Below are positions 1,562-14,926 of a DNA stretch of 64,000 nt, piece after piece (within the stretch, counting starts at the first letter, position 1; every line of letters starts with the position of its first letter). The stretch is from Gammaproteobacteria bacterium (lineage in GTDB: Bacteria > Pseudomonadota > Gammaproteobacteria > Pseudomonadales > Pseudohongiellaceae). Location of the stretch: the NCBI GenBank assembly GCA_947457195.1, contig CANGUU010000007.1, positions 2,967 to 66,966 on the forward strand, in the 5' to 3' direction. A model generated the notes under the pieces. It saw nothing but the letters and a program-made list of their open reading frames with translations. It did not search any database and had not been told where the DNA came from. The position numbers and the translations under genes were made by a program.

Positions 1562-1563
1562 GG

Positions 1564-2952
1564 TCAGTCTTCCCGGAAGCTGCGGGCAACGGAATCGGAA
1601 AGCGGCTTCAGCAGATACTGGATGAAGGTACGCGCCCCGGTGGTGATGAACACCTCGGCCGGCATGCCGGGCACGAGCTCCTGTCCGTTCAGTTCCGTGA
1701 GGGATTCAGGCTTCAACGCCAGGCGTGCCAGGTAGAACTGGGTACCCTGCGAATCGGTGAGGATATCGGCCGAGACCGTGGTCACCGTACCGTACAGCAC
1801 CGGTACCGTGCGGCTATTCATGGCGGTCATGCGGACGGATGCCTCTTGGCCGACTGCCACGCGGTCGATGTCCATCGGTGAGATCTTCGCTTCAATGATC
1901 AGCTCGTCGCTCTCCGGCACGATCTCGGCAATGATGGTACCGGGTGGCAGCACGCTCCCCGGCGTATGCACCGTGAGGCCATTGACGATGCCGGCCTCCG
2001 GTGTGCGGACTTCCGTGCGGCTCACTACGTCGGACAGCGCAGTGATGCGCTCGCGGTATTCCTGCAGGCGGGACTGGACGTCCGCGAGCTCCTCCACCAC
2101 ATCGGACTGCAGGCGGTTTTTCAATTGCAGGATCTGCAATCGGGTTTCCCCGATCTGGATTTGCGTGGACGCGATGGTAGCGGCCAGATCAGCGGCATCG
2201 CCATTGGTCAGGGTCAGGCTGCGCTCGAGTTCGCGCAGGCGGGATTTTTCCGCGAAGCCCTCGTCGAGCAACTGGCGGAAGTCCTGCACTTCGTCGCTGT
2301 AGGACGCAGCCAGTGCCAGTTTGCTTTCGCGTACGGCCTGCAATCCCTCCACGCGCGATTCGAGCTGACCGATGCGCTGTTCGAGCACGGAGATCTCGCC
2401 CTCGTTGGTGGTTTTGTTGGCCAGGAATATGCGCTGCTGCGCAGCCATTTCGGCGGCAGCTACCGGGTCGGACAGATCGAGGCCCGCAGGTGCTTCCACC
2501 GTGGTCTTGCCATCGCGCGCGGCCAGCAAGCGGGCCTCCAGCGCAAGCTGCGCTTTCAGCATGCCGCGGAGCGTGTCGAGCTGGCTGAGCGACTGCGTAT
2601 TGTCCATTTCCAGCAAGACATCGTTGGGCTGCACCTTGTCGCCATCGCTCACATGCACCACCTTGACGATACCGCCTTCCAGGTGCTGGATGGGCTTCTT
2701 GAACGACTTGACTGTGACCTGGCCCACGGCGTGGGCTGCGCTGTCGATGGGCGCCAGCACGGCCCACAGGCCGAACACGCCGAACACCAGCCCTGCCACG
2801 AGCAAGCCGATACGCTTCGGTGCATCGATATTGCTTTCATCGCTCGATGCGCGTTCGCGTACGACCAGTACGTCTTCCAGGCGCGCCAGTGCGCCCCCTG
2901 CCGTGTTCGGCACCGGCTCCTTGCCGAACACCACGCCTGAATTGTCTGCCAC
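1564..2952 (-). CDS. HlyD-family type I secretion periplasmic adaptor (membrane fusion protein)
   Basis: 462 aa. It has a single N-terminal TM helix (IGLLVAGLVFGVFGLWAVLAPI), a lipoyl-like hairpin (GGIVKVVHVSDGDKVQPNDVLLEMD), a long coiled coil and a C-terminal beta-barrel domain. It lies between the ABC and TolC genes. Confidence 0.9.
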   Translation of the reverse strand: MADNSGVVFGKEPVPNTAGGALARLEDVLVVRERASSDESNIDAPKRIGLLVAGLVFGVFGLWAVLAPIDSAAHAVGQVTVKSFKKPIQHLEGGIVKVVHVSDGDKVQPNDVLLEMDNTQSLSQLDTLRGMLKAQLALEARLLAARDGKTTVEAPAGLDLSDPVAAAEMAAQQRIFLANKTTNEGEISVLEQRIGQLESRVEGLQAVRESKLALAASYSDEVQDFRQLLDEGFAEKSRLRELERSLTLTNGDAADLAATIASTQIQIGETRLQILQLKNRLQSDVVEELADVQSRLQEYRERITALSDVVSRTEVRTPEAGIVNGLTVHTPGSVLPPGTIIAEIVPESDELIIEAKISPMDIDRVAVGQEASVRMTAMNSRTVPVLYGTVTTVSADILTDSQGTQFYLARLALKPESLTELNGQELVPGMPAEVFITTGARTFIQYLLKPLSDSVARSFRED

Positions 2953-2997
2953 GGCCTTATTCCTGATATCCGAGAGGGGAGATGTTTTGATGCCCGT

Positions 2998-4716
2998 TCA
3001 TGCCGCCGACCCGAGTTTGGGGGCAGGTTGGGCCAGCTGGCTCAGTACCTGCTCGCGCGGGCCAAAGCCCAGCATGGCGCCATCTTTAAGCACCAGCACC
3101 TTGTCGACCGTACCGAGAATCATGGTGCGATGGCTCACGATCACCACCGTACAGCCGGCCGCCTTGATGCGCTGAATGGCCAGCACCAGTTCACGTTCGC
3201 CCTGATCGTCGAGGTTCGAGTTCGGCTCGTCCAGCACCAGCAGGCGTGGCTCGCCATAGATCGCTCGCGCCAGCCCGATGCGCTGGCGCTGCCCACCGGA
3301 CAGCACGCCGCCGCTGCCGCCGATCACCGTATCGTAGCCCTCCGGTTGGCGCAGGATCAGGTCATGCACGCCGGACATCTGCGCGGCCGCCACGATTTTT
3401 TCGGCATCGCGCTCGCCGAAGCGGCAGATGTTGTCGGCGATCGTCCCGTCGAAGAGTTCGATGTCCTGCGGCAGGTATCCGATGTAGGGACCCAGGTCCT
3501 GGCGGTTCCAGAGGGTGATGTCGGCGCCGTCCAGCCGCACTTTGCCGCTGGCCGACGGCCATACGCCGAGGATGGCGCGCGCCAGCGTGGATTTGCCGGA
3601 GGCGCTCGGGCCGATCACGCCCAGCACTTCACCGGCGGCGAGCTGGAAGTTGATGCCGCGCAGCACCGGCACTCGCGCACCCGGCGGCGTCACATAGATT
3701 TGCTCTACCGACAGGTGTCCGAGCGGGGCCGGCAGTTGTAGCCGCTCATTGGTGGCTGGTACCTGTTCGAGCAGCGCGCAGAGGCGCTCGTACTGGGCGC
3801 GGGCGACCGAGAATGATTTCCACGTGCCCACCAGCATATCGATCGGGGCCAGCGCACGACCAAGCAGCAAGGAGCCCGCCACCATCGCGCCGCCGGTCAC
3901 CTCCTGGTTGAGCGCCAGCCAGGCGCCCAGTCCCAGGATGAGCGACTGCACCACCTGTCGGAAGGTCTTCGACATCGATGTGAGGAAGCCGGCCATCTTG
4001 CTGGCCTCGGCCTGCTGGCGGAGAACTTCCTCGCTGTACTGCTGTTGGCGGCGGCGAATCGCCGAAGTCATGCCCATCGCCTCGATGACCTCGGCATTGC
4101 GCAGGCTATTGACCAAGTGAGCGTTGGCCTTCGCCATCTCGACGTTGGCATCCTTGAGGCGACCGGTGGTGCTGATGTCGGTTACGTAGGCCAGACCGGC
4201 CATCACGATGGCGGCGAAGATCGTCATCAGCCCGTAGCTGTAATGGAACATGAACATCACTGCCAGGTAGATGGGAAACCACGGCACGTCGAAAAAGGCA
4301 AAAATACCGTTGCCGGTGAGAAACTGCCGGAGACTGGTGAGGTCGTTGATGGCCTGAGCGTTGCCCTTGCCCTGTGTTGACTGCAGCGCCGTCTTGAAGG
4401 TTGCGTTGAACACGCGCTCACGCAGGGAGCGCTCGATCTTGTTGCTGGCGAACACCAGCAGATAGGAGCGCACCCACTCGAATGCACCGGTAGCCACCAG
4501 CAGGAACAGTACCAGCAGCGTGAGATACAGCAGGGTGGAGTAGCTGCCGCTGGCTAATACACGATCGTAGACCTGCATCATGTATAGGATCGGCGCAAGT
4601 TGCAGAATATTGATCGCTGCACTGAAGGCGCCGGCGTAGATGAAGTGCTGCCGGATCGCCTGCAGCGCATCCAGCAGTTCCCTCGGTGGTTTCGGATAAT
4701 TGAAGTTCTTCATCAC
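2998..4716 (-). CDS. Type I secretion system permease/ATPase (PrtD/RsaD type, no C39 peptidase domain)
   Basis: 572 aa with an N-terminal 6-TM domain (LAPILYMMQVYDRVL motif). Walker A is GPSASGKST, the ABC signature is LSGGQRQR and Walker B is LLVLDEP. The size and the lack of an N-terminal peptidase domain fit RTX/S-layer exporters. Confidence 0.9.
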   Translation of the reverse strand: MMKNFNYPKPPRELLDALQAIRQHFIYAGAFSAAINILQLAPILYMMQVYDRVLASGSYSTLLYLTLLVLFLLVATGAFEWVRSYLLVFASNKIERSLRERVFNATFKTALQSTQGKGNAQAINDLTSLRQFLTGNGIFAFFDVPWFPIYLAVMFMFHYSYGLMTIFAAIVMAGLAYVTDISTTGRLKDANVEMAKANAHLVNSLRNAEVIEAMGMTSAIRRRQQQYSEEVLRQQAEASKMAGFLTSMSKTFRQVVQSLILGLGAWLALNQEVTGGAMVAGSLLLGRALAPIDMLVGTWKSFSVARAQYERLCALLEQVPATNERLQLPAPLGHLSVEQIYVTPPGARVPVLRGINFQLAAGEVLGVIGPSASGKSTLARAILGVWPSASGKVRLDGADITLWNRQDLGPYIGYLPQDIELFDGTIADNICRFGERDAEKIVAAAQMSGVHDLILRQPEGYDTVIGGSGGVLSGGQRQRIGLARAIYGEPRLLVLDEPNSNLDDQGERELVLAIQRIKAAGCTVVIVSHRTMILGTVDKVLVLKDGAMLGFGPREQVLSQLAQPAPKLGSAA

Positions 4717-4990: not shown

Positions 4991-5692
4991 TCAAAGCTCC
5001 TTGCTGCCCTCCACGTAGCTCTTCAGCAGGGCCAGCGAAGGGATCAGCAGGCGCGCGGCACCGTCGCGCTGTACCACGCCTTCCTGCTGCAAGGTCTGGA
5101 AGACGCGCGTGACCGTTTCTCGGCTGAGATTGAGCATGATGGCGATCTCCATGTGGGTGGGAGGATTGCGGATCTGCCCTTGCTGCAGTGCTGATTTTTC
5201 CTGCTCCTCCACCAGCAGCCACAGCTGCCAGCACACGCGCTGGGCGATGTTGGGCAGGCCGAGCAATGAGCGCTGCAAAGTGAGTTGCCGCACGCGGCGC
5301 GCCAGACGCTCGCCGAGAGAGGTGACCACCGGTGGGCAGGTTTCCATGGCGTCACGCAGCGCTGGCAACGGCACCCAGACCACCATCGCCGGCGCCAGCA
5401 CGATCACGAACTCCGGCTGTGGGCCGCTGTCGAACAGCGCGAGTTCGCCGCAGAAATCCCCGGGCTCTACGAAAAACAGCCCCACTTCGCGGCCGTCGAC
5501 GGTAAAATCCACGCCCTGCAGACGGCCCTCGAACAGAAAGCAGACGCGCTCTCCCCGCTCGCCGGCCTTCAGCACCACGGCGCGGCGCGCAAAACGCTCC
5601 ACGCTGCTTTGCTGGGCAAGCAGCCCCCGGCCGCTTGCAGGCAGCAGGCGGAGCAGGGGAAACGCGCTGAGCAGCTCGGGTGTGACGACCAT
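4991..5692 (-). CDS. Crp/Fnr-family transcriptional regulator (cNMP-binding-like domain plus C-terminal HTH)
   Basis: 233 aa. The beta-roll core is GDFCGELALF. The C-terminal HTH THMEIAIMLNLSRETVTRVFQTLQQEGVV has a recognition helix R-E-T-V-T-R that matches E. coli CRP RETVGR (R180/E181/R185). By manual alignment the phosphate-binding Arg-Ser of CRP appears replaced by Pro-Glu. Confidence 0.85.
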   Translation of the reverse strand: MVVTPELLSAFPLLRLLPASGRGLLAQQSSVERFARRAVVLKAGERGERVCFLFEGRLQGVDFTVDGREVGLFFVEPGDFCGELALFDSGPQPEFVIVLAPAMVVWVPLPALRDAMETCPPVVTSLGERLARRVRQLTLQRSLLGLPNIAQRVCWQLWLLVEEQEKSALQQGQIRNPPTHMEIAIMLNLSRETVTRVFQTLQQEGVVQRDGAARLLIPSLALLKSYVEGSKEL

Positions 5693-5811
5693 CAGCAGTC
5701 CAGGAAAGCCCCGACAGCCTGGTGGCGGAAAACGCCCAGGCCGGGAGCCGGAAAGACGGAGGCGAGTATAAGTGTCTGAGTTGTAACGGCAAACCGCGGA
5801 TGCGGCAGCCG

Positions 5812-5827
5812 TGTGACCTCGGTCACT
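5812..5827. promoter_or_regulatory. CRP-type box TGTGA-CCTCGG-TCACT (9/10 to TGTGA-N6-TCACA) in the divergent promoter between the Crp-family gene and the FecR/CHASE2 operon
   Basis: Read directly from the sequence. The site centre is 5819.5. A TATACT hexamer on the minus strand (5770-5765) would place the centre near -61.5 for the regulator gene. A TAACAT hexamer on the plus strand (5850-5855) would place it near -42.5 for the FecR operon. Both -10 assignments are by eye only. Confidence 0.45.
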
Positions 5828-6014
5828 TCAGCCCGGGCGCCGCCGGCAGTAACATTTGTGTTCACGAAAACCCGCAAGCGCTCGACTGCAGGAGGGCTTG
5901 ATCCGGTGAAGGCCCGACAGAATGTAGAGTAGCTGCCGCTCGGGTGGGTGGCAGACAGCAGCAGCTGCTGGAGCTGCTCAGGTGAACGTCAAACAGACAG
6001 GTGAGGTTGCTGCC

Positions 6015-7439
6015 ATGCAACGCGTGTCACGGACAATTCCCGCTTTTGCGCTCGCCGCCACTACGCTGCTGGCCGCGGCTGTTGCCAGCGCGTCCGGGGT
6101 AGCGCCAGTGCTGGCCATCGGTGAAATCACGCTCGTGCTCGGCAAGGCCGAAGTCAAGCGCGCCGGTGGCGCCGTGGTGCCCGCCACCGTGGGCCTGCCG
6201 GTGCACGTCAACGACCTGATCGAAACCAATGCGCGCGGCCACGTACACGTGCACTTCGTCGACGATGCGCTGGTGAGCGTGCGGCCGCAGAGCCGGCTGG
6301 AGATCCTGCGCTATGACTACGACCCGGCCCGCCCCGCCGAATCCGCAGTCAAGATGAACCTCATCGAAGGCGAAACCCACGCCATTTCCGGCGAGGCCGC
6401 CAAGGCCGCGCGCCAGAATTACCGCATGAACACGCCCATCGCTGCCATCGGCGTGCGCGGCACGGACTACACGGTCACCGCCTCGCGTGAGGCCGTCACC
6501 GCCATCGTCAACGAAGGGGCCATCGTGGTGGCGCCGTTTTCCAGCGGTTGCTCGGCTGACACGCTCGGGCCCTGCAACCAGGGTGCCGTGGAGCTGAACG
6601 GCTATTCGCGTGAGCTGCTGGCACTCAGTGCCGACGCCGCCGGCGTGCGCTCCACGCTGCTGCCGCTCGGGCCGGTGGAAGGCCGCGCCGCCGAATTGCA
6701 GACGGCACCCAGCCCAGAACCGCAGGCCACCGCCAAGCAGGCCGAAGGCCAGCAGCTCTACAACGACACGGTCTCCACCCGTACTGTGAACACCAAGTTG
6801 GCCAGCTCCAGCGAATCCGCCAAGGCGCCAGCCGCTCCCACGCCGCTGGCGCCCACCCCGGTGCCGGTCACGCCCGCCCCTCCGCCCGTGCCTGAATTCA
6901 CGCCGCCCGTAGCCGTGCCTGCCACCACGCTCGCCAGTCAGGGCCAGCTGGTGTGGGGCCGCTGGACCGAAAACAACCTGGCCAACGAGCGCATCTCGGT
7001 TTCGTACGATGTCGCCCGCCAAGATGGCCGCAGCGTGTCGGTGGGCAACACGGTCTACGCGCTGTTCCGCGCCAGCGGCAGCGAGACCGTCTTCAAGCCC
7101 ACGCTCGGCGTGCTGCAGTTCAGCTTGCAGAAAGCGCAGGCCCTCTACAGCACGGCCGGCCGGACCGACCTCATGGGCGTTTCCGGCGGCAAATTGCAGC
7201 TGGACTTCGAACAGGCGCTGTTTTCCACCACGTTGCAGCTCAGCCACGAGGCGCTCGGTAATTACCAGTTCGCCACCAGCGGGCGTATTTATTCCGGCGG
7301 CGTGTTCCACGCCAACAACGAGACGCAGGCCATGGCCGGCGCACTCAGTTACGACAACAAGGAAGCCGGCTACTTCTTCGAGCGCACGCTGCCCGGCGGC
7401 ACCATCTCCGGCATCACCCTGTGGAACCGCGCCCCGTGA
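6015..7439 (+). CDS. Secreted FecR-domain protein with Pro-rich linker and C-terminal beta-rich domain
   Basis: ATG 6015 is preceded by AGGTGAGG (5999-6006). The signal peptide is MQRVSRTIPAFALAATTLLAAAVASA with no lipobox Cys. The FecR-like segment is GEITLVLGKAEVKRAGG...VHVNDLIETNARGHVHVHFVDDALVSVRPQSRLEI. A Pro-rich linker (APAAPTPLAPTPVPVTPAPPPVP) is followed by a roughly 170-aa domain with an alternating-hydrophobic pattern. An alternative GTG start lies at 5982. Confidence 0.75.
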   Translation: MQRVSRTIPAFALAATTLLAAAVASASGVAPVLAIGEITLVLGKAEVKRAGGAVVPATVGLPVHVNDLIETNARGHVHVHFVDDALVSVRPQSRLEILRYDYDPARPAESAVKMNLIEGETHAISGEAAKAARQNYRMNTPIAAIGVRGTDYTVTASREAVTAIVNEGAIVVAPFSSGCSADTLGPCNQGAVELNGYSRELLALSADAAGVRSTLLPLGPVEGRAAELQTAPSPEPQATAKQAEGQQLYNDTVSTRTVNTKLASSSESAKAPAAPTPLAPTPVPVTPAPPPVPEFTPPVAVPATTLASQGQLVWGRWTENNLANERISVSYDVARQDGRSVSVGNTVYALFRASGSETVFKPTLGVLQFSLQKAQALYSTAGRTDLMGVSGGKLQLDFEQALFSTTLQLSHEALGNYQFATSGRIYSGGVFHANNETQAMAGALSYDNKEAGYFFERTLPGGTISGITLWNRAP

Positions 7440-9433
7440 AAAACAGCGCCGCCATGGCCGCCTTGCTCCGGATACCCGGCCGCCTGATCGGCCAGTGGCA
7501 GCCGTGGCAGGCGCGTGCCGGACTGCTGGCCGGTGCCGGCCTGCTCACGCTGTTGCTGCAGGCCCTGCTGCCGTCCCTGGTTTCTGGCGTCGAGGAGCAG
7601 CTCGGCAGTCTCGGATGGCGCCTCGCGCCCGATGCCCGGCAGGAAGAGCGCATCAACATCATTGCGATCGACGAGAAGAGCCTCGCCGAGGTGGGCCCGT
7701 GGCCCTGGTCGCGGCAGACCATGGCGCAGCTTGCCACCGCCCTGCAGCAGGCCGGCGTGCAGCTGCAGGCCTACGACATCGCCTTCCCCGAAGCCCGTGA
7801 GGGCGACGATGCCTTCGCCGCCGCGCTGGCCGGCACCAGCGCCGTGCTGGCGCAGGTGCCCGACCTGCTCAATCCGGGCCAGATCACCACCACCGGCCTG
7901 CTCGGGTCGCCGCTGCTCGGCGTGGCCTGCAGCAACGCCGCCAGCACCGGCAGCTACACCGGCAACACGGCCGCGCTGGCCGGCATCGCCGCCGGCCATG
8001 CCACGCCCATCGTCGACGGTGATGGCGCGGTGCGCCGCGTGCCGGCCTATATCTGTGTGAACGGGCAGCCCTATCCGGCACTGGCGTTGAGTGCCCTGCT
8101 CGCCGCCACCCGCACGGACAGCTGGCAGGCCACGCGCAGCACAGGCGCCGGGCCCTGGCAGGCGGTGCAGCAACTCACCTTCGCGGCCTACCCCGGGCTT
8201 GCCATTCCCCTCGACGCCGACGGCAATTTCCGCGTGTCGTTCCGCCAGTCCCCCGACGCCTACCGCGCAATTTCGGCCGCCGACGTGCTGGCCGGCCGCG
8301 TAGACCCCGGCGTGCTGGCCAACAGCTGGGCGCTGGTCGGCTTCACCGCCTTCGGCATGAACGATGTCGTCCCCACTCCCTTCAACGGCGCCGCCCACGG
8401 CGTGGAACTGCAGGCCCGCATCCTTGCCAGCGTGCTCGACGCCAACGTCCCCTTCACCCCGCGGGCGGCGCCCTGGCTGCTGGCGCTGCTGTGTGCCGGT
8501 TTCGCCGCCCTGCTGTGGGGGCTGGCCGCCGCGCGGGAGCGGCTCGGTAACTATGGGTTGGCGGCCGGTGCTCTGCTGCTGCCGGCGCTGGCGCTCTATG
8601 TCCACATGCAGGTGCTGGCACAGTCCGCCTGGTGGCTGGGCTGGTTTGCGCCGGCCGTGTTCGGGTTCCTGGCGGGCAGCCTGTTGCTGCTGCAGGAATA
8701 TGCCCGAGTGCGTTTCGAGCGGGCGCGGGTGTTTGGCAACCTCAGCAGCTACCTGCCAGCCGAGGTGGCCGAGGCCATTGCCTTCAGCCTTCCCGGTTCG
8801 TCGGTGAATGCCGAGCGCCGCAACGTGACGCTGCTCAGTGCCGATCTGCGCAATTTCTCGGCCTTCGGCGAAGCGCGGCCGCCCGAAGAATCGGCGGCGC
8901 TGCTGCACATGTTCTTCAGCAAAAGCACCGAGATCGTGGAGCGTTGCCACGGCCGCATCCACGAATTCAAGGGCGATTCGCTGCTGGCCGTGTGGGAAGG
9001 CAGCGACGCCAAGGCCGCCAACCACGCGGTGCAGGCCGCCCTGCTCATGCAGAGCGCCATCAGCGAGTTCCTGCCGCAGCACCCCCCTGCAGGGCTTGAG
9101 CCGCTGGCGCTCGGCATCGGCATCGAACAGGGGCCGGTGCTCATCGGCTCGCTGGGTTCGGCCCAGCGCCGCAGCCATACGCTGCTGGGCGAAACGGTCA
9201 CCATCACGCTGCGCATTCAGGAGATGACTGCCGAACTCGCCCATCCCGTGCTGATCGGCGAATGCGCTGCCCGCCAGCTGGCGGATCTGGCGCTGGTGTC
9301 GCAGGGCAGCTACCTGCTGGCCGGCCTGCGCAATCCGCATATACTCTACGCGCTTCCGTTCAGCGCCCTGGCGCAGGCAACTGCCAGGATCGAACAGCCT
9401 CCTCTCAGAGTGGTGCGCGGCGGACGCAGTTGA
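7436..9433 (+). CDS. CHASE2-domain membrane sensor fused to a class III adenylate/guanylate cyclase
   Basis: The GTG start overlaps the FecR stop (GTGA, 7436-7439). The architecture is an N-terminal TM, a roughly 300-aa periplasmic CHASE2-like domain, three TM helices (APWLLALLCAGFAALLWGLAAA...) and a cyclase domain. The cyclase domain has metal Asp motifs (LLSADLRNFS, FKGDSLLAVW) and GETVTITLRIQ. The Lys in FKGD is compatible with ATP specificity but does not prove it. The start could also be 7421 or 7454. Confidence 0.85.
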   Translation: MKNSAAMAALLRIPGRLIGQWQPWQARAGLLAGAGLLTLLLQALLPSLVSGVEEQLGSLGWRLAPDARQEERINIIAIDEKSLAEVGPWPWSRQTMAQLATALQQAGVQLQAYDIAFPEAREGDDAFAAALAGTSAVLAQVPDLLNPGQITTTGLLGSPLLGVACSNAASTGSYTGNTAALAGIAAGHATPIVDGDGAVRRVPAYICVNGQPYPALALSALLAATRTDSWQATRSTGAGPWQAVQQLTFAAYPGLAIPLDADGNFRVSFRQSPDAYRAISAADVLAGRVDPGVLANSWALVGFTAFGMNDVVPTPFNGAAHGVELQARILASVLDANVPFTPRAAPWLLALLCAGFAALLWGLAAARERLGNYGLAAGALLLPALALYVHMQVLAQSAWWLGWFAPAVFGFLAGSLLLLQEYARVRFERARVFGNLSSYLPAEVAEAIAFSLPGSSVNAERRNVTLLSADLRNFSAFGEARPPEESAALLHMFFSKSTEIVERCHGRIHEFKGDSLLAVWEGSDAKAANHAVQAALLMQSAISEFLPQHPPAGLEPLALGIGIEQGPVLIGSLGSAQRRSHTLLGETVTITLRIQEMTAELAHPVLIGECAARQLADLALVSQGSYLLAGLRNPHILYALPFSALAQATARIEQPPLRVVRGGRS

Positions 9434-9468
9434 GTTGCCCGCCACTTTCGGAGTTCCCTGGCGCTGTG

Positions 9469-10929
9469 ATGCTTGCCGCCCCTTCCAACCTGTGGGAGCA
9501 CAGGTCTGCGACGTCCTTGCCGCGCTCGGGTCCGCACGGTCACGCTCAGCCTTCCCGCTGCTCCGCTTCCCGCCCGGTCTCCCGGCCGCCCGTCTTGCTT
9601 CGCCGCTGGCGTGTTGGCGCCTTGCTCGCGCCTTTGCTGCTGGTGCTGGGGTTGCCCGCCGCGCTCGGGCAAACATGCCCGCCGCTGCAACCTTATTACC
9701 CGGCCAGCAACCCCGCCCCACCGGAGGAGTGGCAGGCGCGGCTGCCACAGCTGGAGGCCTTGCTGGAAAACTGCCTGCAAAGCGCCGAGTACTTTGCGCT
9801 GCTGGGCGCCGCCCGGCTCAACAGCGGGCAGGTGCCGGCGGCAGTGGAATCGCTGGAGCGCGCGCTGCTGCTGCAGCCCGGCCACGGTGCCGCCCAGATC
9901 GACTACGCCGAAGCGCTGTACCTCAGCGGCCAGCTGTTCCCGGCGCTGGAACTGAACGAGACAGTGCTCGGCCGCAGTGACCTGCCCCCCGCCCTGCGGC
10001 CGGTGATCGAGGCACGGCAGCAGTTCTGGCGCGGGCAGACCCGGCGCCGCCAGCTTTCGCTGGAAGCCACTGCCGGCTACGACACCAACCTCAACAACGC
10101 CCCCACGCGCGGCGACCTGACGCTTACCTTCGGCGGCACGCCGGTCACGCTCAGCGTGGACCCGCAGTTCCGCCCGGTGGAAGGCCGCTTTGGCAACCTG
10201 CGTGCCGGCGGCGTGTGGCAGTGGCTCACCCCCGACCACCAGCATGACTTTACGGCCAACCTGCGCGGCCGCTTCACCGGCAGCGGCGCCACCGCGCTCA
10301 ACCAGGCCCAGTGGCGCTACGGCTTCAGCCGGCCCGGCCGCCACACGGTGTGGACGGCCAACGTAGGCAGCAGCCACATGAGCTTTGGGGGTAACGCCCT
10401 CTACAGCGTGGGCGAAACCCTCCTTACGCTGGGCTGGAACAGCGCCGGCCGCTGCCAACCCGCCCTGAGCGGTGGCCTGCAGACCCTGCACTACCACGGC
10501 CAGCGGGTGATGGACGGTCTGGAGGCCAGCCTGACCGCCAGCCTCGGCTGCCGGTCGGCCAGCGGCCGCCAGCAGCTACGGGTAGACGCCGGCGGACTGG
10601 ATAACAGCGCCAGCAGCGCCAACCGGCCCGGCGGCGACCGCGCCGGCTGGAACCTGCGGCTGGGCTGGCAGTACCAGTCCGGCCGGCACCTGTGGAGCGC
10701 GCTCTACAGCCACGCCAGCGTAGAAGACCAGCGCGGCTACAGCCCGCTGCTGGCCAATGGAGCCACCCGCCGGTTGGGCAACCGGGTGCTCCTGCTGCGC
10801 TACCAATGGGGCTTTGCGGAGGGCGCCGCCTTGGTGCTGGGGCTGAGCCACCAGGCCCAGTCCAGCAACCTGCAACCGTTCCAGAATCGTGGCACTGCAA
10901 CCGAAGTGGGACTGCTGCTCAACTTCTAG
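9469..10929 (+). CDS. TPR-containing outer-membrane beta-barrel protein (possibly Slam/DUF560-like)
   Basis: The signal-like segment is LLRRWRVGALLAPLLLVLGLPAALG. TPR-like helices follow (SAEYFALLGAARLNSGQVPAAVESLERALLLQPGHGAAQIDYAEALY). About 300 aa of amphipathic beta strands begin at LSLEATAGYDTNLNNAP and end in the aromatic terminus GLLLNF. The start is uncertain: ATG 9469 or TTG 9595. The Slam/DUF560 assignment is my pattern recognition only. Confidence 0.55.
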   Translation: MLAAPSNLWEHRSATSLPRSGPHGHAQPSRCSASRPVSRPPVLLRRWRVGALLAPLLLVLGLPAALGQTCPPLQPYYPASNPAPPEEWQARLPQLEALLENCLQSAEYFALLGAARLNSGQVPAAVESLERALLLQPGHGAAQIDYAEALYLSGQLFPALELNETVLGRSDLPPALRPVIEARQQFWRGQTRRRQLSLEATAGYDTNLNNAPTRGDLTLTFGGTPVTLSVDPQFRPVEGRFGNLRAGGVWQWLTPDHQHDFTANLRGRFTGSGATALNQAQWRYGFSRPGRHTVWTANVGSSHMSFGGNALYSVGETLLTLGWNSAGRCQPALSGGLQTLHYHGQRVMDGLEASLTASLGCRSASGRQQLRVDAGGLDNSASSANRPGGDRAGWNLRLGWQYQSGRHLWSALYSHASVEDQRGYSPLLANGATRRLGNRVLLLRYQWGFAEGAALVLGLSHQAQSSNLQPFQNRGTATEVGLLLNF

Positions 10930-11134
10930 CCTTTTCCAAGTCTTTACAGCTGCTTACAGGCAATTCTTTACACTCGCTGTCAGGTGCTTGCAATGCCCTA
11001 CACGGCACGGTAGTCTTGCCACGCTTGTACTGCCCCTGACCAGCTCTTGCTCGCGCTGGGGCGTGGTCCAGTGCAAGGCAGTACCACGAACAACGTAGCA
11101 GGGCGGTCCGCAGTGGCCGGGAAAATGGCAGGTC

Positions 11135-11150
11135 TGTGACGCGAGTCACA
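11135..11150. promoter_or_regulatory. Perfect CRP consensus box TGTGA-CGCGAG-TCACA upstream of the S-layer-like gene
   Basis: Read directly: tgtga (11135-11139), cgcgag, tcaca (11146-11150). The centre is 11142.5, 117 bp upstream of ATG 11267, in a 337-bp lower-GC intergenic region. Confidence 0.6.
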
Positions 11151-11171
11151 CGCAGTGGCCAAGCCCGCCAG

Positions 11172-11177
11172 TAATAT
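11172..11177 (+). promoter_or_regulatory. Putative -10 hexamer TAATAT for the S-layer-like gene
   Basis: The TAATAT hexamer implies a TSS near 11184. That puts the CRP box centre at -41.5 (class II geometry) and gives a 5' UTR of about 83 nt ending in a strong SD, AAGGAG (11252-11257). This is a by-eye assignment with no TSS data. Confidence 0.3.
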
Positions 11178-11266
11178 CCACCCTGCTACAAGAGGCGAAA
11201 TTCCTCTACAAACCCAGTACCACTTGCCTTACCAACAACACCCTAAACTCCAAGGAGATATACAAG

Positions 11267-14200
11267 ATGGCGTCTATATCCGCTGAAGGCCGCAGTGAAC
11301 TCATTGCCCTTTACGTCACCATGTTCAACGCAGCCCCGAGCGCAGCCAACCTGTCTGCCATCGTGGGCCAGAGAGAAGGTGGCGCCAGCCTCGTGGCCGT
11401 TGCCAATACTCTGGCAGCCAGCCCCGATTTCGCCCGCCAGTATCCGGGCTTCCTGACGGCCGACGAATTTGCCAACCGTCTGGCCACCAACATGCTGGGC
11501 AGTGAGGTTTCCGCTGCCACTCGTGACTGGGCCGTGAACTACGTTCGCAGCCAGCTCACCTCCGGCCGCGCCGCCACTGCTGTGGTCACCGAGGCCGTCC
11601 AGGCCCTGCGCGGCACCACCAACACCGAATTTGCCAATGCCAAAGCACTGCTGGCCAACAAAGTGGAAGTTGCTTCCTACTACGCAATCTCGAAGGAGCA
11701 GCCAGCCGATTCCCAGGTTGTCATGATTGGTGTTACCAGTACTGCCTCGACGGTTGTCAGTGCAAAAACCGCAATCGATAGCATTGCGAGCGTAGTGGCT
11801 GGCCAGACCTTCACGCTCACTACCAGCGCCAACACGGGTGCCCTGTTTACTGGTGGTGCCGGTGACGATTCCTACAACGGCGATTTGAGCGGCGGCAACA
11901 ACACTCTGAATGCGCTGGATCGTCTCGATGGCGGCGCAGGGACGGATACGCTGAACGCTGTATTGGCGTCCGACGTTACGCCCGCCAGCATTGCCAACAT
12001 CGAAAACATCGTGGCTACTGCCTCGGGTGGCGCGCGTGAACTCAACCTGGTCAATGCACCAGGAGTCCGGTCTGTAAGCTCCACGTCCTCCTCTGGCGGC
12101 GTGATGACGGTCAGCGGCATTGCTGCTGGTGCATCGCTTGCCGTCAACTCCCAGTCCGTCGGCGCCACGTTCAACTACGCCGACACCTCGGGTACGCAAT
12201 CAATCGCCCTTGGCGTAGCCGGTGTAACAGGCGCAGCCCCTGTCACGGTAAACGGAGTAGAAACAATTGCCGTAACGGCAACGGGTTCCGCCAGCACCTA
12301 CCAGCTGTCGGCCGATGCACTGACCTCGGTGAGCTTTGCCGGTTCGGCTGCGCAAACCGTCACTCTGGCCGGTATGACCGGCACCTCTAGCTTCAACGCG
12401 GGTGCTGCTACCGGTGCTGTCAACCTGACCCTGATCAACCAGTCTATTCTGGCGTCCACCACGCGCGTGACCGTCACCGGCGGAACTGGTAACGATACGC
12501 TGACTGTCGGCGCCCATACGCAGTCCGACCTCAACGTCTCTGCCGGTGCTGGCAACGACACGGTAAGCCACAGCAGTGTTTCCACCACTGATACCCTCAG
12601 CGGCGGCGATGGAACCGATACGCTGAGCACCACAATGGCTTCCGCCAATGCGATCGATGCATCCGCCCCACTCACACGCATCATTACCGGCTTTGAGCGC
12701 ATTACGATCACTGACGCGTTCGACGGTACCCTTAGCCTATCCAACATCGACACTGGGCTTGTCCAGGTCAATCTGGCAGACGGTGCATCCGGCGCTGGTG
12801 CGTTGATGACTGGCGGTGACGCCATCACCGGCCCTGCGGGCACGCTGACAGTGAACGTTGGTGGCTCCTCTGCAGGTAACGCCACGACCATGGGCGGCGC
12901 ACTTACCGTGACGGACACCGGTACAGCGACGACGGACTCGGTAATCATCAACAATACGGCTGTCAACACCACGACTGCCCTTGGCATCAACGTGTTTAAC
13001 GCCCAAAACATCACGTCCACCGGCTATGAGAATGTCACCATTGGCGTTGGTAGCTCGGGTACGACTGCACCGGCGTCTACGATTGGTACACTCACCATTA
13101 CGCCGGACGATTTGACGGCAGCCATATCGCTCACACTGACCGGTGGAAACGATGTGACCATCTCAAGCGTGACATCGACGGGAACTGGTCGCCTGACCAT
13201 TGACGCCTCTGCCGTCAATGCCGGAACCGACAGCCCATACGTTCAGATCGACGCAGTTACCCTCGGAACAGGTGGCACTGCCAGCATCATTGGTTCTGCT
13301 GGTAACGACAGCATCACCAGCGGAACTGTTGCACAGACGATCTCCGGCGGTGCTGGTAACGATACCATCACCGGTGGCACAGCCGCCGACAACATCAGCG
13401 GCGATGCTGGCAACGACACCATCACTGATGGCGCGGGTGGCAATGACACTATCGCTGGTGGTGATGGTAACGACACGATCACCGTGACGGGTACCTCTAC
13501 CGTAAGCGTAGATGGTGGTGCCGGTAACGACACCATTAACATCGGTAGCGTATTGTCGGCGCTTGACACCGTAAGCGGGGGTGATGGTACCGATACTCTC
13601 CGTTACTCCAGTGCCGTTACCGCAGACGTTGCTGTAGGGGTGGCAGGCTTCGAAACGCTGCGCGCCGACGCTGCGCTAACGCAGGATATGGTGCAGTTCG
13701 TAAATAATGCTGGCTTTACCCGCTTGATCAACCAGGTTGCTGGTGCCGTAACGTTCAACAACGTCGGCAGCGCCGTGACCTCGTTCACCGCGGGCGTTGC
13801 GGGCTCAACGACTACTATTGATCGCCTGCTGGATACGACATCCAACAGCCTCTCGGTATCACTGACCACTGCAACGACGACGACTGCACTCACTGCAAGT
13901 GATGAAGAAACTATCACGGTGAGTTCCAGCTTGACTGGTGCAGTCACCCTGACCACACTGACGGCGGACGACTTGACCACGCTGAATATTGGCGGTCTTG
14001 GCGCCGTTACCATCACCAACATCGCCAATGCAGCCAACTTGGCTGCAATCAATATCACGACCTCGGCGGCGGTATCGGTGAATGGAAACCAGTCCACGGT
14101 TAATATGACGGCGACCGGTACATCAGCATTCGCCAACACCATTACCGGTGGTTCTGGCAATGACGTGATCACGGGTGGTTCTGCAGCAGATAGCCTCACG

Positions 14201-14869
14201 GGCGGCGGCGGCGCCGATACCGTCTCCGGTGGTAACGGCGACGATATCTTGCTGGGTGGCAGCGGTGCCGACAGCATCACGGGCGGTGAAGGCTCCGATA
14301 GCGTTACTGGTGGCACTGGCAACGACACCGTGGTTCTTACCGAGAACTCCGCTGTAGCGGACACGGTGGTTCTGTCCACAGCGGCTACCAATGGTGTTGA
14401 TACCATCGTCGGTTTTGCGGCGGGTGCAGGGGCAGACATCATCCAGTTCGTCAATGCCGACACCACGCAGGCCGATGCTGCAGGCGCAGGCGCATTCCAA
14501 GACATTGCTGCAGTCACCTTGGTGAACGCTGCCGCCTACGATCTGGCCGCAGTCATCAACACTGCTACAATTTCCGTGGTGGAACTGCGAGGCACAACCG
14601 CAGCCAACGGCGATCTGGGTGCGGCGACCGATGGTTCAGAATTGCTGAAGTTACTCGGCACCGCCGACTCGGCAGCGACCGGCATCACCGTTGACAACAA
14701 CGGTGATCAGCTCTTCCTGGTAGCGTACGACAACGGCAATGCCTACCTGTTCCATGCAAACTCCGGTGCTGACACTACCGTCTCAGCCTCTGAGATCCGG
14801 TTGGTGGGTATCCTCACGGGTATCACGGTTGGTGCAATTGCTGACGGCGACATCGTAAGCTTGGCCTAA
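11267..14869 (+). CDS. RTX-repeat, T1SS-secreted S-layer-like surface protein (RsaA-type architecture)
   Basis: 1200 aa, rich in Thr/Ala/Gly/Ser/Val, and I saw no Cys. The N-terminal helical domain of about 150 aa is not repeat-like. Long beta-strand repeats follow. Two blocks of GGxGxD nonapeptides are present (GGAGNDTITGGTAADNISGDAGNDTITDGAGGNDTIAGGDGNDTI and GGSGNDVITGGSAADSLTGGGGADTVSGGNGDDILLGGSGADSITGGEGSDSVTGGTGNDTV). There is no N-terminal signal peptide. The C-terminus ...LFLVAYDNGNAYLFHANSGADTTVSASEIRLVGILTGITVGAIADGDIVSLA has the style of uncleaved T1SS signals. Confidence 0.8.
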   Translation: MASISAEGRSELIALYVTMFNAAPSAANLSAIVGQREGGASLVAVANTLAASPDFARQYPGFLTADEFANRLATNMLGSEVSAATRDWAVNYVRSQLTSGRAATAVVTEAVQALRGTTNTEFANAKALLANKVEVASYYAISKEQPADSQVVMIGVTSTASTVVSAKTAIDSIASVVAGQTFTLTTSANTGALFTGGAGDDSYNGDLSGGNNTLNALDRLDGGAGTDTLNAVLASDVTPASIANIENIVATASGGARELNLVNAPGVRSVSSTSSSGGVMTVSGIAAGASLAVNSQSVGATFNYADTSGTQSIALGVAGVTGAAPVTVNGVETIAVTATGSASTYQLSADALTSVSFAGSAAQTVTLAGMTGTSSFNAGAATGAVNLTLINQSILASTTRVTVTGGTGNDTLTVGAHTQSDLNVSAGAGNDTVSHSSVSTTDTLSGGDGTDTLSTTMASANAIDASAPLTRIITGFERITITDAFDGTLSLSNIDTGLVQVNLADGASGAGALMTGGDAITGPAGTLTVNVGGSSAGNATTMGGALTVTDTGTATTDSVIINNTAVNTTTALGINVFNAQNITSTGYENVTIGVGSSGTTAPASTIGTLTITPDDLTAAISLTLTGGNDVTISSVTSTGTGRLTIDASAVNAGTDSPYVQIDAVTLGTGGTASIIGSAGNDSITSGTVAQTISGGAGNDTITGGTAADNISGDAGNDTITDGAGGNDTIAGGDGNDTITVTGTSTVSVDGGAGNDTINIGSVLSALDTVSGGDGTDTLRYSSAVTADVAVGVAGFETLRADAALTQDMVQFVNNAGFTRLINQVAGAVTFNNVGSAVTSFTAGVAGSTTTIDRLLDTTSNSLSVSLTTATTTTALTASDEETITVSSSLTGAVTLTTLTADDLTTLNIGGLGAVTITNIANAANLAAINITTSAAVSVNGNQSTVNMTATGTSAFANTITGGSGNDVITGGSAADSLTGGGGADTVSGGNGDDILLGGSGADSITGGEGSDSVTGGTGNDTVVLTENSAVADTVVLSTAATNGVDTIVGFAAGAGADIIQFVNADTTQADAAGAGAFQDIAAVTLVNAAAYDLAAVINTATISVVELRGTTAANGDLGAATDGSELLKLLGTADSAATGITVDNNGDQLFLVAYDNGNAYLFHANSGADTTVSASEIRLVGILTGITVGAIADGDIVSLA
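13340..13602 (+). repeat. RTX Ca-binding nonapeptide repeat block 1 (coding repeat)
   Basis: Tandem GGxGNDTI units are read in frame from Ile692 onward, with further GGAGNDTINIG and GGDGTDTL units up to about 13602. Confidence 0.8.
14141..14335 (+). repeat. RTX Ca-binding nonapeptide repeat block 2 (coding repeat)
   Basis: Seven consecutive GGxGxDx(L/I/V)x units are read in frame, from ITGGSGNDV to GGTGNDTVV. Confidence 0.85.
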
Positions 14870-14891: not shown

Positions 14892-14926
14892 AAAACCCGC
14901 CCCCCAAAAGGGGGCGGGTTTTTTTT
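14892..14926 (+). terminator. Rho-independent terminator after the S-layer-like gene
   Basis: A 9-bp GC stem (cccgccccc at 14896-14904 pairing with gggggcggg at 14910-14918) has a 5-nt loop and is followed by T8 (14919-14926). It is preceded by A4, so it may be bidirectional. Confidence 0.85.

What the first reader, a model, noticed from the sequence alone, without database searches (positions are those of the whole stretch)
11135..11177. Perfect TGTGA-N6-TCACA box at class II distance from a TAATAT hexamer upstream of the S-layer-like gene
The 16-mer tgtgacgcgagtcaca matches the E. coli CRP half-sites exactly on both arms. With equal base frequencies a perfect 10/10 match is expected about 0.06 times in 64 kb (64,000 x 4^-10). 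Here it falls in the single intergenic region upstream of the most strongly signalled gene in the window, which has an AAGGAG RBS and a perfect terminator. A TAATAT hexamer at 11172-11177 would put the box centre at -41.5, the canonical class II CRP activator position. I did not exhaustively scan coding regions for further boxes.
Basis: seen in the sequence. Interest (0 to 1): 0.7.

Follow-up and report, generated by a model that had tools for sequence, protein, structure and literature searches.

The report
Conserved CRP-type switch for S-layer gene
The perfect TGTGA-N6-TCACA box is a real, strongly conserved binding site, most likely for a CRP-family regulator encoded 5.5 kb away beside a sensor cyclase, and it appears to switch on a secreted S-layer-like surface protein in well over a hundred uncultured bacterial species.

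Summary
TGTGACGCGAGTCACA (11135-11150) is the only perfect box in 64 kb. It lies 21 nt upstream of TAATAT (class II geometry) and before a 1200-aa RTX/S-layer-like gene.

The likely regulator is encoded in the same locus, not a global E. coli-type CRP. It is a CRP/FNR-family protein (4991-5692, minus strand) that keeps the R-E..R recognition helix. It sits next to a FecR / CHASE2-cyclase / TPR operon and a type I secretion system.

A second box with one mismatch (5812-5827) lies between the regulator gene and fecR. It is at a class II distance from a fecR -10 element and at about -61.5 from a near-consensus promoter for the regulator gene.

The same gene set recurs in 160 related loci from two lineages with different gene orders, and both kinds of box recur in every locus that holds the relevant region:
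- 148 perfect boxes were found in 2.25 Mb against 1.3 expected, all at these promoters.
- The box-to-(-10) spacing is conserved.
- S-layer homologue loci that lack the regulator also lack the box.

One result was unexpected. In the window's lineage the cyclase has a guanylate-cyclase-like Glu and the regulator lacks the universal cyclic-phosphate Arg. In the sister lineage both are canonical. The effector is therefore probably not ordinary cAMP.

Binding, the transcription start site and the effector are all untested.

The parts
11135..11150 (.). Box 1: perfect inverted repeat TGTGAC-GCGA-GTCACA, the proposed operator of the S-layer-like gene promoter
   Evidence: It is unique in the window. 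Its position is conserved upstream of the orthologous gene in 45/47 clade-A and 38/40 clade-B sequences.
11172..11177 (+). -10-like hexamer TAATAT of the proposed S-layer promoter; the predicted TSS near 11184 is inferred
   Evidence: It lies 21 nt after the box. A TAnnnT hexamer sits 21-22 nt after the box in 46/47 related sequences, against a background of 0.0056 per position. The -35 region matches TTGACA at only 0-3 of 6 positions.
11252..11257 (+). Ribosome-binding site AAGGAG
   Evidence: Read directly from the sequence, 9 nt before the ATG at 11267.
11267..14869 (+). Target gene: 1200-aa RTX-repeat, S-layer-like protein, a presumed type I secretion substrate
   Evidence: Pfam HemolysinCabind hit at 2.8e-28. 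Homologues are named 'S-layer protein' or 'Ca2+-binding RTX' by their sources. Glycosyltransferase and SapC genes lie downstream.
14901..14925 (+). Intrinsic terminator after the S-layer-like gene
   Evidence: Found by the terminator scan and visible in the sequence.
5812..5827 (.). Box 2: TGTGACCTCGGTCACT (one mismatch) in the divergent region between the regulator gene and fecR
   Evidence: It is the only one-mismatch hit in the window. An equivalent box with exactly one mismatch, always at the same position (the last A replaced by T, C or G), is present in 78/78 clade-A sequences.
5850..5855 (+). -10-like hexamer TAACAT of the proposed fecR-cyclase-TPR operon promoter (class II geometry); the predicted TSS near 5862 is inferred
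   Evidence: It lies 22 nt after box 2. A TAnnnT hexamer sits 21 nt (74 sequences) or 22 nt (4 sequences) after the box in all 78.
5765..5792 (-). Sigma-70-type promoter of the regulator gene: TTGCCG (5792-5787), 16-nt spacer, TATACT (5770-5765). Box 2 is centred near -61.5, the class I position
   Evidence: It is the only promoter-like hit in 4600-6100, against 0.1 expected. A -10 hexamer starts 40-42 nt from the box in 56/78 related sequences, usually as TTGCTA-N17-TATAAT.
4991..5692 (-). CRP/FNR-family transcription factor (233 aa), the proposed box-binding protein
   Evidence: Pfam domains cNMP_binding and HTH_Crp_2. Its best solved relatives are GlxR, M. tuberculosis CRP, CAP and Vfr, at E 1e-17 to 1e-13. 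Positions R180, E181 and R185 are invariant in 81 orthologues, and Arg82-Ser83 is replaced by Q-P.
6015..7439 (+). FecR-domain protein, first gene of the sensor operon
   Evidence: Pfam FecR hit at 2.7e-10. Synteny holds in every related locus long enough to include this region.
7436..9433 (+). CHASE2 class III nucleotidyl cyclase; its start overlaps the fecR stop by 4 nt
   Evidence: Pfam CHASE2 hit at 8e-45 plus Guanylate_cyc. The closest solved domain is the Cya2 guanylyl cyclase, 2w01. The metal-binding Asp pair and the transition-state Arg are conserved, Glu occupies the Lys specificity position in 62/62, and the usual Asn is T/S/G/A.
9469..10929 (+). TPR-containing protein (486 aa) ending in ...LLLNF; a possible outer-membrane component of the sensor (inferred)
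   Evidence: Weak TPR hits. It is conserved between the cyclase gene and the S-layer gene in clade A.
230..4716 (-). Type I secretion system downstream of the regulator gene: ABC PrtD-type (2998-4716), HlyD-type adaptor (1564-2952) and TolC-type channel (230-1561)
   Evidence: NCBIfam hits TIGR01842 (737 bits), TIGR01843 (366 bits) and TIGR01844 (220 bits). No minus-strand terminator is predicted between the regulator gene and the ABC gene. This region has its own perfect box in 9 clade-A loci and in 21/21 clade-B loci that hold the T1SS ABC gene.

Best explanation
Box 1 is the operator of an activator-dependent promoter for the S-layer-like RTX gene. A dimer of the CRP-family regulator encoded at 4991-5692 binds TGTGAY-N4-RTCACA through its RETVTR recognition helix. 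Bound at about -41.5, it overlaps the missing -35 element and recruits RNA polymerase (class II activation).

The same protein binds the deliberately imperfect box 2. There it sits at a class II distance from the promoter of the fecR / CHASE2-cyclase / TPR sensor operon, and at about -61.5 (a class I distance) from the near-consensus promoter of its own gene and the type I secretion genes behind it. Together these form a feedback loop.

The envelope-spanning sensor (TPR protein, FecR-domain protein, CHASE2 cyclase) is proposed to set the regulator's activity through a nucleotide made by the cyclase. Production and export of the surface protein would then be switched together by an extracytoplasmic signal.

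Shown: the sites, their geometry, their conservation, the gene content and the residue patterns.
Inferred: binding, the direction of regulation, the start sites, the operon structure, and the identity and role of the ligand.
For: - Uniqueness in the window: one perfect box and one box with one mismatch, both in intergenic regions of one locus.
- Cognate regulator in the locus. R180, E181 and R185 are invariant in 81 orthologues, and RE[TS]V[TS]R is present in all 112 sequences examined from both clades. The review PMC10187061 assigns these residues to G2, G4 and the C opposite G4 of TGTGA.
- Conserved locus. In 80 species-level genomes (Pseudohongiellaceae, OM182 and other Gammaproteobacteria) the order is S-layer <- TPR <- cyclase <- FecR <-|-> TF -> ABC -> HlyD -> OEP. 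A second lineage (Janthinobacterium sp. BJB412 plus 80 metagenome loci) has the same genes in a different order.
- Box conservation:
  - upstream of the S-layer gene: 45/47 and 38/40 perfect;
  - fecR region: 78/78 with one fixed mismatch in clade A, and 27 perfect plus 18 one-mismatch of 45 in clade B;
  - T1SS ABC gene: 21/21 in clade B.
- Enrichment: 148 perfect boxes in 2.25 Mb against 1.3 expected, all at these promoters.
- Geometry: a -10 hexamer 21-22 nt after the box in 46/47 (S-layer) and 78/78 (fecR) sequences; a poor -35 element; and the regulator promoter found independently by the scan tool.
- Controls: S-layer homologue loci without the regulator and cyclase (L167, L168/L169) have no box.
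- Precedents: S. meliloti CHASE2 cyclases with Clr, whose targets include FecR-domain and TPR proteins, and the R. centenum gcyB-gcyC-cgrA operon with a perfect CAP box.
Against: - There are no experimental data: no mapped TSS, no binding assay and no expression data.
- A site overlapping the -35 region is also where a repressor would sit.
- E. coli CRP's activating-region residues (H19, H21, K101, T158/H159) are not conserved, so contact with RNA polymerase cannot be assumed to follow the E. coli pattern.
- The regulator lacks the cyclic-phosphate Arg, so the link from cyclase to regulator through a cyclic nucleotide is uncertain in this lineage.
- In clade B the best -10 hexamer (TATACT) is 23 nt after the box, not 21-22 nt.
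- One Rhodocyclaceae locus (L165) has a regulator, a CHASE2 cyclase and an S-layer homologue, but no box with one mismatch or fewer and no enrichment at two mismatches.
- Whole genomes could not be scanned, so the size of the regulon and the presence of a second CRP/Vfr protein are unknown.
Confidence: 0.72

Rival explanations
1. The box is a real site for the locus-encoded regulator, but the regulator represses. Sitting over the -35/spacer region, it would occlude RNA polymerase, so the S-layer gene would be switched off when the regulator is active.
For: The box overlaps the position where a -35 element would lie. S-layer proteins are usually made constitutively at high level (general knowledge), which fits a promoter that is only occasionally shut off. 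The E. coli activating regions are not conserved.
Against: The promoters have a conserved -10 but essentially no -35 (0-3 of 6 matches), which is typical of activator-dependent promoters. The box-to-(-10) spacing is fixed at the 22-bp class II value across 78 and 47 sequences, a constraint that simple occlusion does not need. The regulator's own promoter has a good -35/-10 with the box at -61.5, an activating position.
Confidence: 0.12
2. The box is bound mainly by a global cAMP-CRP/Vfr-type regulator encoded elsewhere in the genome, which ties S-layer expression to carbon status. On this reading the neighbouring CRP-family gene is incidental.
For: The box is identical to the CAP/Vfr/GlxR consensus. 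Many Pseudomonadales carry Vfr (general knowledge). Only 64 kb of this genome could be inspected.
Against: The box co-occurs with the local regulator and cyclase in two lineages with different gene orders. It is absent from S-layer loci that lack them. Boxes also sit in the regulator's own divergent promoter in all 78 clade-A sequences. No other perfect box occurs in 2.25 Mb of flanking DNA. Cross-talk with a second CRP cannot be excluded.
Confidence: 0.1
3. The palindrome is a chance match or a structural element (an RNA hairpin, terminator or REP-like repeat), not a protein-binding site.
For: As RNA it could form a 6-bp stem with a GCGA loop, and a 64-kb window offers many positions for a chance match.
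Against: Only 0.02 matches are expected per window. The half-site sequence is conserved across about 160 loci while the central 4 bases and the flanks vary. Positions 6 and 11 are complementary in only 69 of 136 distinct sites, so pairing is not under selection. No T-run follows the box.
Confidence: 0.01

Closest known systems
E. coli CAP/CRP class II promoters (for example galP1-type), and CRP homologues with the same box (Vfr, GlxR, M. tuberculosis Rv3676, SYCRP1)
   Same: The half-sites TGTGA-N6-TCACA are identical. The RE..R recognition helix is shared. The 22-bp distance from the site to the second base of the -10 and the weak -35 also match.
   Different: The regulator is only 23% identical to CAP and falls far below NCBIfam's CRP cut-off. 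It is encoded next to its targets, lacks the Arg82-Ser83 cAMP signature and lacks the AR1/AR2/AR3 residues. As far as the 2.25 Mb examined shows, its sites are confined to one locus.
Sinorhizobium meliloti CyaD1/CyaD2/CyaK - Clr cascade
   Same: CHASE2-domain cyclases feed a CRP-family regulator. That regulator's direct targets include a FecR-domain protein (SMc02177) and a TPR protein (SMb20495), and an extracytoplasmic signal is sensed (PMC5498481; PMC13001267).
   Different: The Clr box is TGTT-N8-AACA / HGTYHC-N4-GRWACA, not TGTGA-N6-TCACA. The Clr targets are scattered and relate to symbiosis. Here the FecR, cyclase and TPR genes form one operon beside an S-layer gene and its secretion system.
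Rhodospirillum centenum GcyA/B/C - CgrA (cGMP-CRP) system
   Same: Cyclase genes and a CRP-family regulator share an operon whose promoter carries a perfect CAP box, giving autoregulation. The nucleotide is not cAMP (PMC10187061).
   Different: CgrA keeps the phosphate-binding Arg (an RT motif), whereas the window's regulator has Gln-Pro-Glu at that place. CgrA controls cyst development through hundreds of sites.
RTX S-layer proteins exported by dedicated type I systems (Caulobacter RsaA/RsaDEF, Campylobacter fetus SapA/SapCDEF)
   Same: An RTX-repeat surface protein is encoded with an adjacent ABC / adaptor / TolC-type exporter, a SapC-family gene and glycosyltransferases.
   Different: As far as I know, no cyclic-nucleotide or CRP-type control has been described for those systems. 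A full-text search for CHASE2 together with S-layer found no paper. That the window protein forms an S-layer is itself unproven.

Membership tests
CRP-type operator (TGTGA-N6-TCACA) | A 16-bp inverted repeat with TGTGA half-sites separated by 6 bp | tested here: met
   Exact match at 11135-11150. The consensus across 136 distinct related sites is TGTGAY-N4-RTCACA.
CRP-type operator (TGTGA-N6-TCACA) | A cognate CRP-family protein with Arg-Glu-x3-Arg in the recognition helix | tested here: met
   SRETVTR in the regulator at 4991-5692. Positions R180, E181 and R185 are invariant in 81 orthologues. The residue roles are taken from PMC10187061.
CRP-type operator (TGTGA-N6-TCACA) | Demonstrated protein binding to the site | not testable with these tools
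   This needs EMSA, footprinting or ChIP.
Class II CRP-dependent promoter | Site centred near -41.5, that is, 22 bp between the site and the second base of the -10 | tested here: met
   The interval 11151-11172 is 22 bp. The spacing is conserved in 46/47 sequences. The -10 hexamer and the TSS are predictions.
Class II CRP-dependent promoter | Weak or absent -35 element | tested here: met
   0-3 of 6 matches to TTGACA at a 17-nt spacing in 46 sequences.
Class II CRP-dependent promoter | Activating regions AR2 (H19, H21, K101) and AR3 as in E. coli CAP | tested here: not met
   These positions are S/T/A, R/E/Q and S/A, with K52 replaced by F, in the orthologues. These residues are specific to E. 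coli and may not define the mechanism elsewhere.
Class II CRP-dependent promoter | Mapped transcription start and activator dependence | not testable with these tools
   This needs 5' RACE or dRNA-seq, and reporter assays.
cAMP receptor protein (CRP equivalog, NCBIfam NF008732) | Score above the curated family cut-off | tested here: not met
   70.2 bits against a cut-off of 266, and 23% identity to E. coli CRP.
cAMP receptor protein (CRP equivalog, NCBIfam NF008732) | Cyclic-phosphate signature Arg82-Ser83 together with Glu72 | tested here: not met
   Gly71 and Glu72 are kept, but Arg-Ser is replaced by a conserved Gln-Pro(-Glu) in 77/81 orthologues and in the nearest roughly 45 family representatives. 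The clade-B regulators keep R-S or R-T.
Class III adenylate cyclase | Two metal-binding Asp residues and the transition-state Arg | tested here: met
   Conserved in 62/62, 62/62 and 61/62 sequences respectively.
Class III adenylate cyclase | Lys at the first substrate-specifying position and Asn in the transition-state pair | tested here: not met
   Glu occupies the Lys position in 62/62 sequences, as it does in the Cya2 guanylyl cyclase in the direct alignment. Asn is replaced by T/S/G/A. The clade-B cyclases have K, T, N and R. An active cyclase without the Asn is known (Ma1120, PMC4215837).
S. meliloti Clr-type CHASE2-cyclase cascade | A CHASE2 cyclase, a CRP-family regulator, and FecR-domain and TPR-domain partner genes | tested here: met
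   All four are present and syntenic. For comparison.
S. meliloti Clr-type CHASE2-cyclase cascade | Clr box TGTT-N8-AACA | tested here: not met
   The sites here are TGTGAY-N4-RTCACA. The Clr box is as described.

The most novel reading that the evidence does not exclude
In the window's lineage the cyclase and the regulator have changed together. The cyclase carries a guanylate-cyclase-like Glu and has lost the usual Asn. The regulator has lost the otherwise universal cyclic-phosphate Arg and gained a conserved Glu (the x-Q-P-E motif). The sister lineage keeps the canonical adenylate-cyclase and R-S signatures, with the same DNA box.

The most novel reading is that this pair signals through a messenger other than cAMP (cGMP or another nucleotide), recognised by a new type of cyclic-nucleotide-binding pocket. 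Alternatively, the regulator may have become ligand-independent, with the cyclase signalling in some other way. In either case a whole S-layer plus secretion module would be under second-messenger control.
Probability: 0.35. Interest if true: 0.8.

Novelty: new variant of a known kind. Interest (0 to 1): 0.6.

Why it matters
S-layers are usually treated as constitutive, very abundant surface coats. Here the gene for an S-layer-like protein, and in many genomes its exporter too, sits behind an activator-dependent promoter. That promoter is wired to an envelope sensor (TPR protein, FecR-domain protein, CHASE2 cyclase) and a dedicated CRP-family regulator. The wiring is conserved across more than 150 species-level genomes and metagenome contigs from marine, freshwater and soil Gamma- and Betaproteobacteria.

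This gives a concrete, testable regulon for CHASE2, a widespread sensor domain whose signals are unknown.

It also offers a natural pair of lineages in which the cyclase active site and the receptor pocket co-vary. That pair could be used to ask what determines nucleotide specificity in CRP-family receptors.

Cultured carriers exist for experiments: Pseudohongiella nitratireducens SCS-49, strain LSUCC0112 and Janthinobacterium sp. BJB412.

Tried and rejected
- Rfam scan of the whole window: no family reached its gathering threshold, so the box is not part of a known RNA element.
- RNA hairpin reading of the box: rejected. Positions 6 and 11 are complementary in only half of the sites, and the loop and flanks are not conserved.
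- Upstream block 11005-11095, conserved with L005: folds no better than shuffled sequence (z = -0.81). The predicted 5' UTR is also unremarkable (z = +0.22).
- The tool's own promoter scan found no sigma-70 promoter upstream of the S-layer gene. This fits an activator-dependent promoter with no -35.
- An alternative constitutive promoter, TTTACA-N16-TGCAAT (10967-10994), was considered. It is only partly conserved in the closest relative and was not pursued.
- Sigma-54 reading of the TTGGCACA... block that follows the -10 in Pseudohongiella-type loci: rejected, because the GG-to-GC spacing does not fit. This rests on inspecting the output by eye.
- Two-mismatch matches in the window show no enrichment. 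The match at 5681-5696 overlaps the regulator's start codon. A similar weak match recurs at that position in many related loci, where it overlaps the conserved N-terminal codons (MVVT). I read it as a by-product of coding, not a regulatory site.
- No box lies upstream of the T1SS genes in the window (best match has 4 mismatches). They are presumed to be co-transcribed with the regulator gene.
- An exact look-up of the window's translation of the S-layer protein found nothing. The identical database protein P0001 did locate the source contig.
- Literature: no paper combines CHASE2 with S-layer.
- L165 (Rhodocyclaceae) was examined as a possible third arrangement but has no box.
- Structure prediction was not run. 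Sequence matches to solved CRP and cyclase structures were already decisive for fold assignment, and a predicted model cannot identify the ligand.

Full report
**1. The observation**

The 16-mer TGTGACGCGAGTCACA lies at 11135-11150. It is the only exact match to TGTGA-N6-TCACA in the window; shuffles expect 0.02. TAATAT follows at 11172-11177, leaving 21 nt between the box and the hexamer. That is 22 bp from the site to the second base of the -10, the spacing a recent review singles out as exclusive to class II CRP promoters (PMC10187061).

Downstream signals are all present:
- AAGGAG at 11252-11257;
- an ATG at 11267;
- a 1200-aa ORF;
- a hairpin with a T-run at 14901-14925.

Allowing one mismatch adds exactly one more site, TGTGACCTCGGTCACT at 5812-5827. 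At two mismatches there is no enrichment.

**2. What surrounds it**

The downstream protein has RTX calcium-binding repeats. Its homologues are labelled S-layer or RTX proteins by their sources. The window is part of an ENA metagenome scaffold.

On the plus strand, upstream of the box, lie three genes:
- a FecR-domain gene (6015-7439);
- a CHASE2 class III cyclase (7436-9433, overlapping the fecR stop);
- a TPR protein (9469-10929).

Divergent from these is a 233-aa CRP/FNR-family regulator (4991-5692, minus strand). Behind it sits a PrtD/HlyD/TolC-type type I secretion system. Glycosyltransferase and SapC genes follow the S-layer gene.

The second box lies in the 322-bp gap between the regulator gene and fecR.

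**3. The regulator fits the box**

The regulator's closest solved relatives are C. glutamicum GlxR, M. tuberculosis CRP, E. coli CAP and Vfr (E 1e-17 to 1e-13). All of these use TGTGA-N6-TCACA.

Its recognition helix reads SRETVTR. The positions equivalent to R180, E181 and R185 of CAP contact G2, G4 and the C opposite G4 of TGTGA. They are invariant in 81 orthologues and in all 112 sequences examined across both lineages.

It is not a CRP orthologue. It is 23% identical to E. coli CRP and scores 70 bits against NCBIfam's cut-off of 266.

**4. Comparative evidence, window lineage (clade A)**

Searching one genome per species with the regulator returned 80 loci at 59-92% identity. Almost all are gammaproteobacterial MAGs: Pseudohongiella and Pseudohongiellaceae, OM182, and unclassified Pseudomonadales. 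Two are isolates, P. nitratireducens SCS-49 and LSUCC0112.

Wherever the contig is long enough, the gene order is: S-layer <- TPR <- cyclase <- FecR <-|-> regulator -> ABC -> HlyD -> OEP.

S-layer promoter:
- A perfect box lies upstream of the S-layer gene in 45 of 47 sequences (window included). The other two have one mismatch.
- A TAnnnT hexamer follows 21-22 nt later in 46 of 47, against a background of 0.0056 per position.
- The -35 position matches TTGACA at only 0-3 of 6 bases.

Regulator-fecR gap:
- All 78 sequences that include this region (window included) hold a box with exactly one mismatch. It is always the same one: read towards fecR, the last A of TCACA is T, C or G, never A.
- A TAnnnT hexamer follows 21 nt (74 sequences) or 22 nt (4 sequences, including the window's TAACAT at 5850-5855) later.
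- On the other side, a near-consensus promoter (TTGCTA/TTGCCG, 16-17 nt, TATAAT/TATACT) starts its -10 hexamer 40-42 nt from the box in 56 of 78 sequences. This puts the box near -61.5.
- In the window this promoter is TTGCCG (5792-5787), 16 nt, TATACT (5770-5765). It is the only promoter the scan tool reports in that region.

One site therefore sits at a class II distance from one promoter and at a class I distance from the divergent one.

**5. Comparative evidence, second lineage (clade B)**

Janthinobacterium sp. BJB412 carries the same gene set in a different order. It has four perfect boxes in 23.7 kb: one before the S-layer gene, one between the cyclase gene and fecR, and two before the T1SS operon.

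A metagenome scan with its regulator gave 80 further loci. Their layout is: ABC <- ... S-layer <- FecR <-|-> cyclase -> TPR -> (VanZ) -> regulator. Perfect boxes occur as follows:
- before the S-layer gene: 38 of 40;
- before the genuine T1SS ABC gene: 21 of 21;
- in the fecR/cyclase gap: 27 perfect plus 18 with one mismatch, of 45.

**6. Totals and controls**

- 148 perfect boxes occur in 2.25 Mb of fetched loci, against 1.3 expected from base composition. All lie at these promoters.
- The consensus is TGTGAY-N4-RTCACA. The centre and the flanks are essentially unconstrained.
- Positions 6 and 11 are complementary in only 69 of 136 distinct sites. This argues against an RNA hairpin.
- S-layer homologue loci without the regulator and cyclase (L167, L168/L169) have no box.
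- One exception: a Rhodocyclaceae locus (L165) has a regulator, a CHASE2 cyclase and an S-layer homologue, but no box.

**7. Mechanism**

The most economical reading is that the locus-encoded regulator activates two promoters in class II mode: the S-layer promoter, through a perfect and presumably high-affinity site, and the fecR-cyclase-TPR operon, through a site kept imperfect in all 78 clade-A sequences. From the class I position it may also boost its own promoter and the secretion genes behind it. No minus-strand terminator is predicted between the regulator gene and the ABC gene.

This would be a positive feedback circuit driven by an envelope sensor. All steps beyond site, geometry and conservation are inferred. 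A repressor role cannot be excluded from sequence alone.

**8. The effector problem**

In clade A the nucleotide pocket keeps Gly71 and Glu72 but replaces Arg82-Ser83 with a conserved Gln-Pro, followed by Glu. The nearest roughly 45 family representatives in a 1.84-billion-protein library all lack the Arg. More distant relatives have the usual P-R-S-A.

The clade-A cyclase keeps both metal-binding Asp residues and the transition-state Arg. It differs in three ways:
- Glu occupies the position where adenylate cyclases have Lys (62 of 62). The Cya2 guanylyl cyclase, its closest solved relative, has Glu there too.
- Thr, Ala or Val occupies the second specificity position.
- T, S, G or A replaces the usual Asn.

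The literature describes E-C and E-G pairs as guanylate-cyclase signatures and notes that Thr occurs at the second site in some cyclases. It also reports an active cyclase that lacks the Asn (PMC4215837).

In clade B the cyclase is K/T/N/R and the regulator keeps R-S or R-T (49 of 50). The covariation between cyclase and regulator across 62 and 50 loci is essentially perfect. The L165 pair (R/T/N/R with P-R-S-A) fits the same pattern.

The window's system therefore probably does not use cAMP in the canonical way. Three options remain open: cGMP or another nucleotide bound in a new way, an apo-active 'CRP-like' protein, or another coupling.

**9. Comparison with known systems**

The site and its geometry match E. 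coli class II CRP promoters, but the regulator fails the tests for CRP membership.

The closest studied circuit is in S. meliloti. There CHASE2 cyclases (CyaD1, CyaD2, CyaK) act through Clr, whose targets include a FecR-domain protein and a TPR protein (PMC5498481). Its DNA box is different, however.

The R. centenum gcyB-gcyC-cgrA operon also has a perfect CAP box in front of cyclase and regulator genes and uses cGMP, but CgrA keeps the Arg. FecR-domain genes are also paired with CHASE2 histidine kinases in Burkholderia (PMC5192318).

I found no report linking CHASE2 or a CRP-family regulator to an S-layer gene.

**10. Verdict**

- The feature is a new variant of a known kind of system.
- Interest is moderate to high. 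This rests mainly on the conserved S-layer/secretion regulon and on the co-varying non-canonical cyclase-receptor pair.

Noticed in passing
window 5812-5827 and the equivalent site in L005-L084: The promoter-proximal half-site of box 2 is TCAC followed by T, C or G in 78 of 78 sequences, never the consensus A. The S-layer box, by contrast, is perfect. This looks like selection for a weaker site, perhaps to set a threshold in a feedback loop.
   Followed up: partly
window 10937-10984: Two tandem 24-nt direct repeats (CAAGTCTTTACAGCTGCTTACAGG / CAATTCTTTACACTCGCTGTCAGG) lie just after the TPR gene stop, with TTTACA motifs. A possible TTTACA-N16-TGCAAT promoter lies at 10967-10994. The first copy is conserved in L005; the second is less so.
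   Followed up: partly
window 11109-11118 and 11151-11160: An exact 10-nt direct repeat, CGCAGTGGCC, flanks box 1 at a spacing of 42 nt. It is not conserved in the closest relative L005, so it is probably chance.
   Followed up: partly
window 11010-11085: This block is almost identical between the window and L005 and can form a long imperfect hairpin, but it folds no better than shuffled sequence (z = -0.81). It could be a 3' element of the sensor operon.
   Followed up: partly
window 11191-11207: A small hairpin, AGAGG-N7-CCTCT, lies just after the predicted TSS. It is kept in L005 as AAGGG-N7-CCCTT, with two compensatory pair changes. It may be a 5' stabilising stem, but only two sequences were compared.
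   Followed up: no
L018, L038, L047, L067, L070, L077, L081 and others, immediately after the -10 of the S-layer promoter: Pseudohongiella-type loci share a conserved block, TTGGCACAaCCGAnnnGGGGTCATCnGCTG, at the start of the presumed 5' UTR. It is absent from the window and does not fit sigma-54 spacing.
   Followed up: no
window 12000-18000: The S-layer and glycosyltransferase region has lower G+C (0.575-0.606) than its surroundings (0.65-0.69). This is compatible with a different codon regime or horizontal acquisition of that part of the locus.
   Followed up: no
L167 17825-20782: In an S-layer homologue locus that lacks the CRP/cyclase module, the type I ABC exporter (985 aa) itself carries a weak N-terminal cNMP-binding hit and a C39-like domain. 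This may be another way of coupling export to a nucleotide signal.
   Followed up: no
L165 (Rhodocyclaceae MAG JACFMQ010000004.1) 1-13048: A third arrangement: a CRP-family regulator (P-R-S-A pocket, SRETVSR helix) and a CHASE2 cyclase (R/T/N/R) sit among glycosyltransferase genes next to an S-layer homologue. There is no TGTGA-N6-TCACA box with one mismatch or fewer.
   Followed up: partly
window 24981-26534 and 52952-56734: A 517-aa protein with a matrixin (M10) peptidase domain could be another secreted protein. A 1260-aa minus-strand ORF has no Pfam hit and overlaps a 1280-aa plus-strand ORF, so which of the two is real was not resolved.
   Followed up: no
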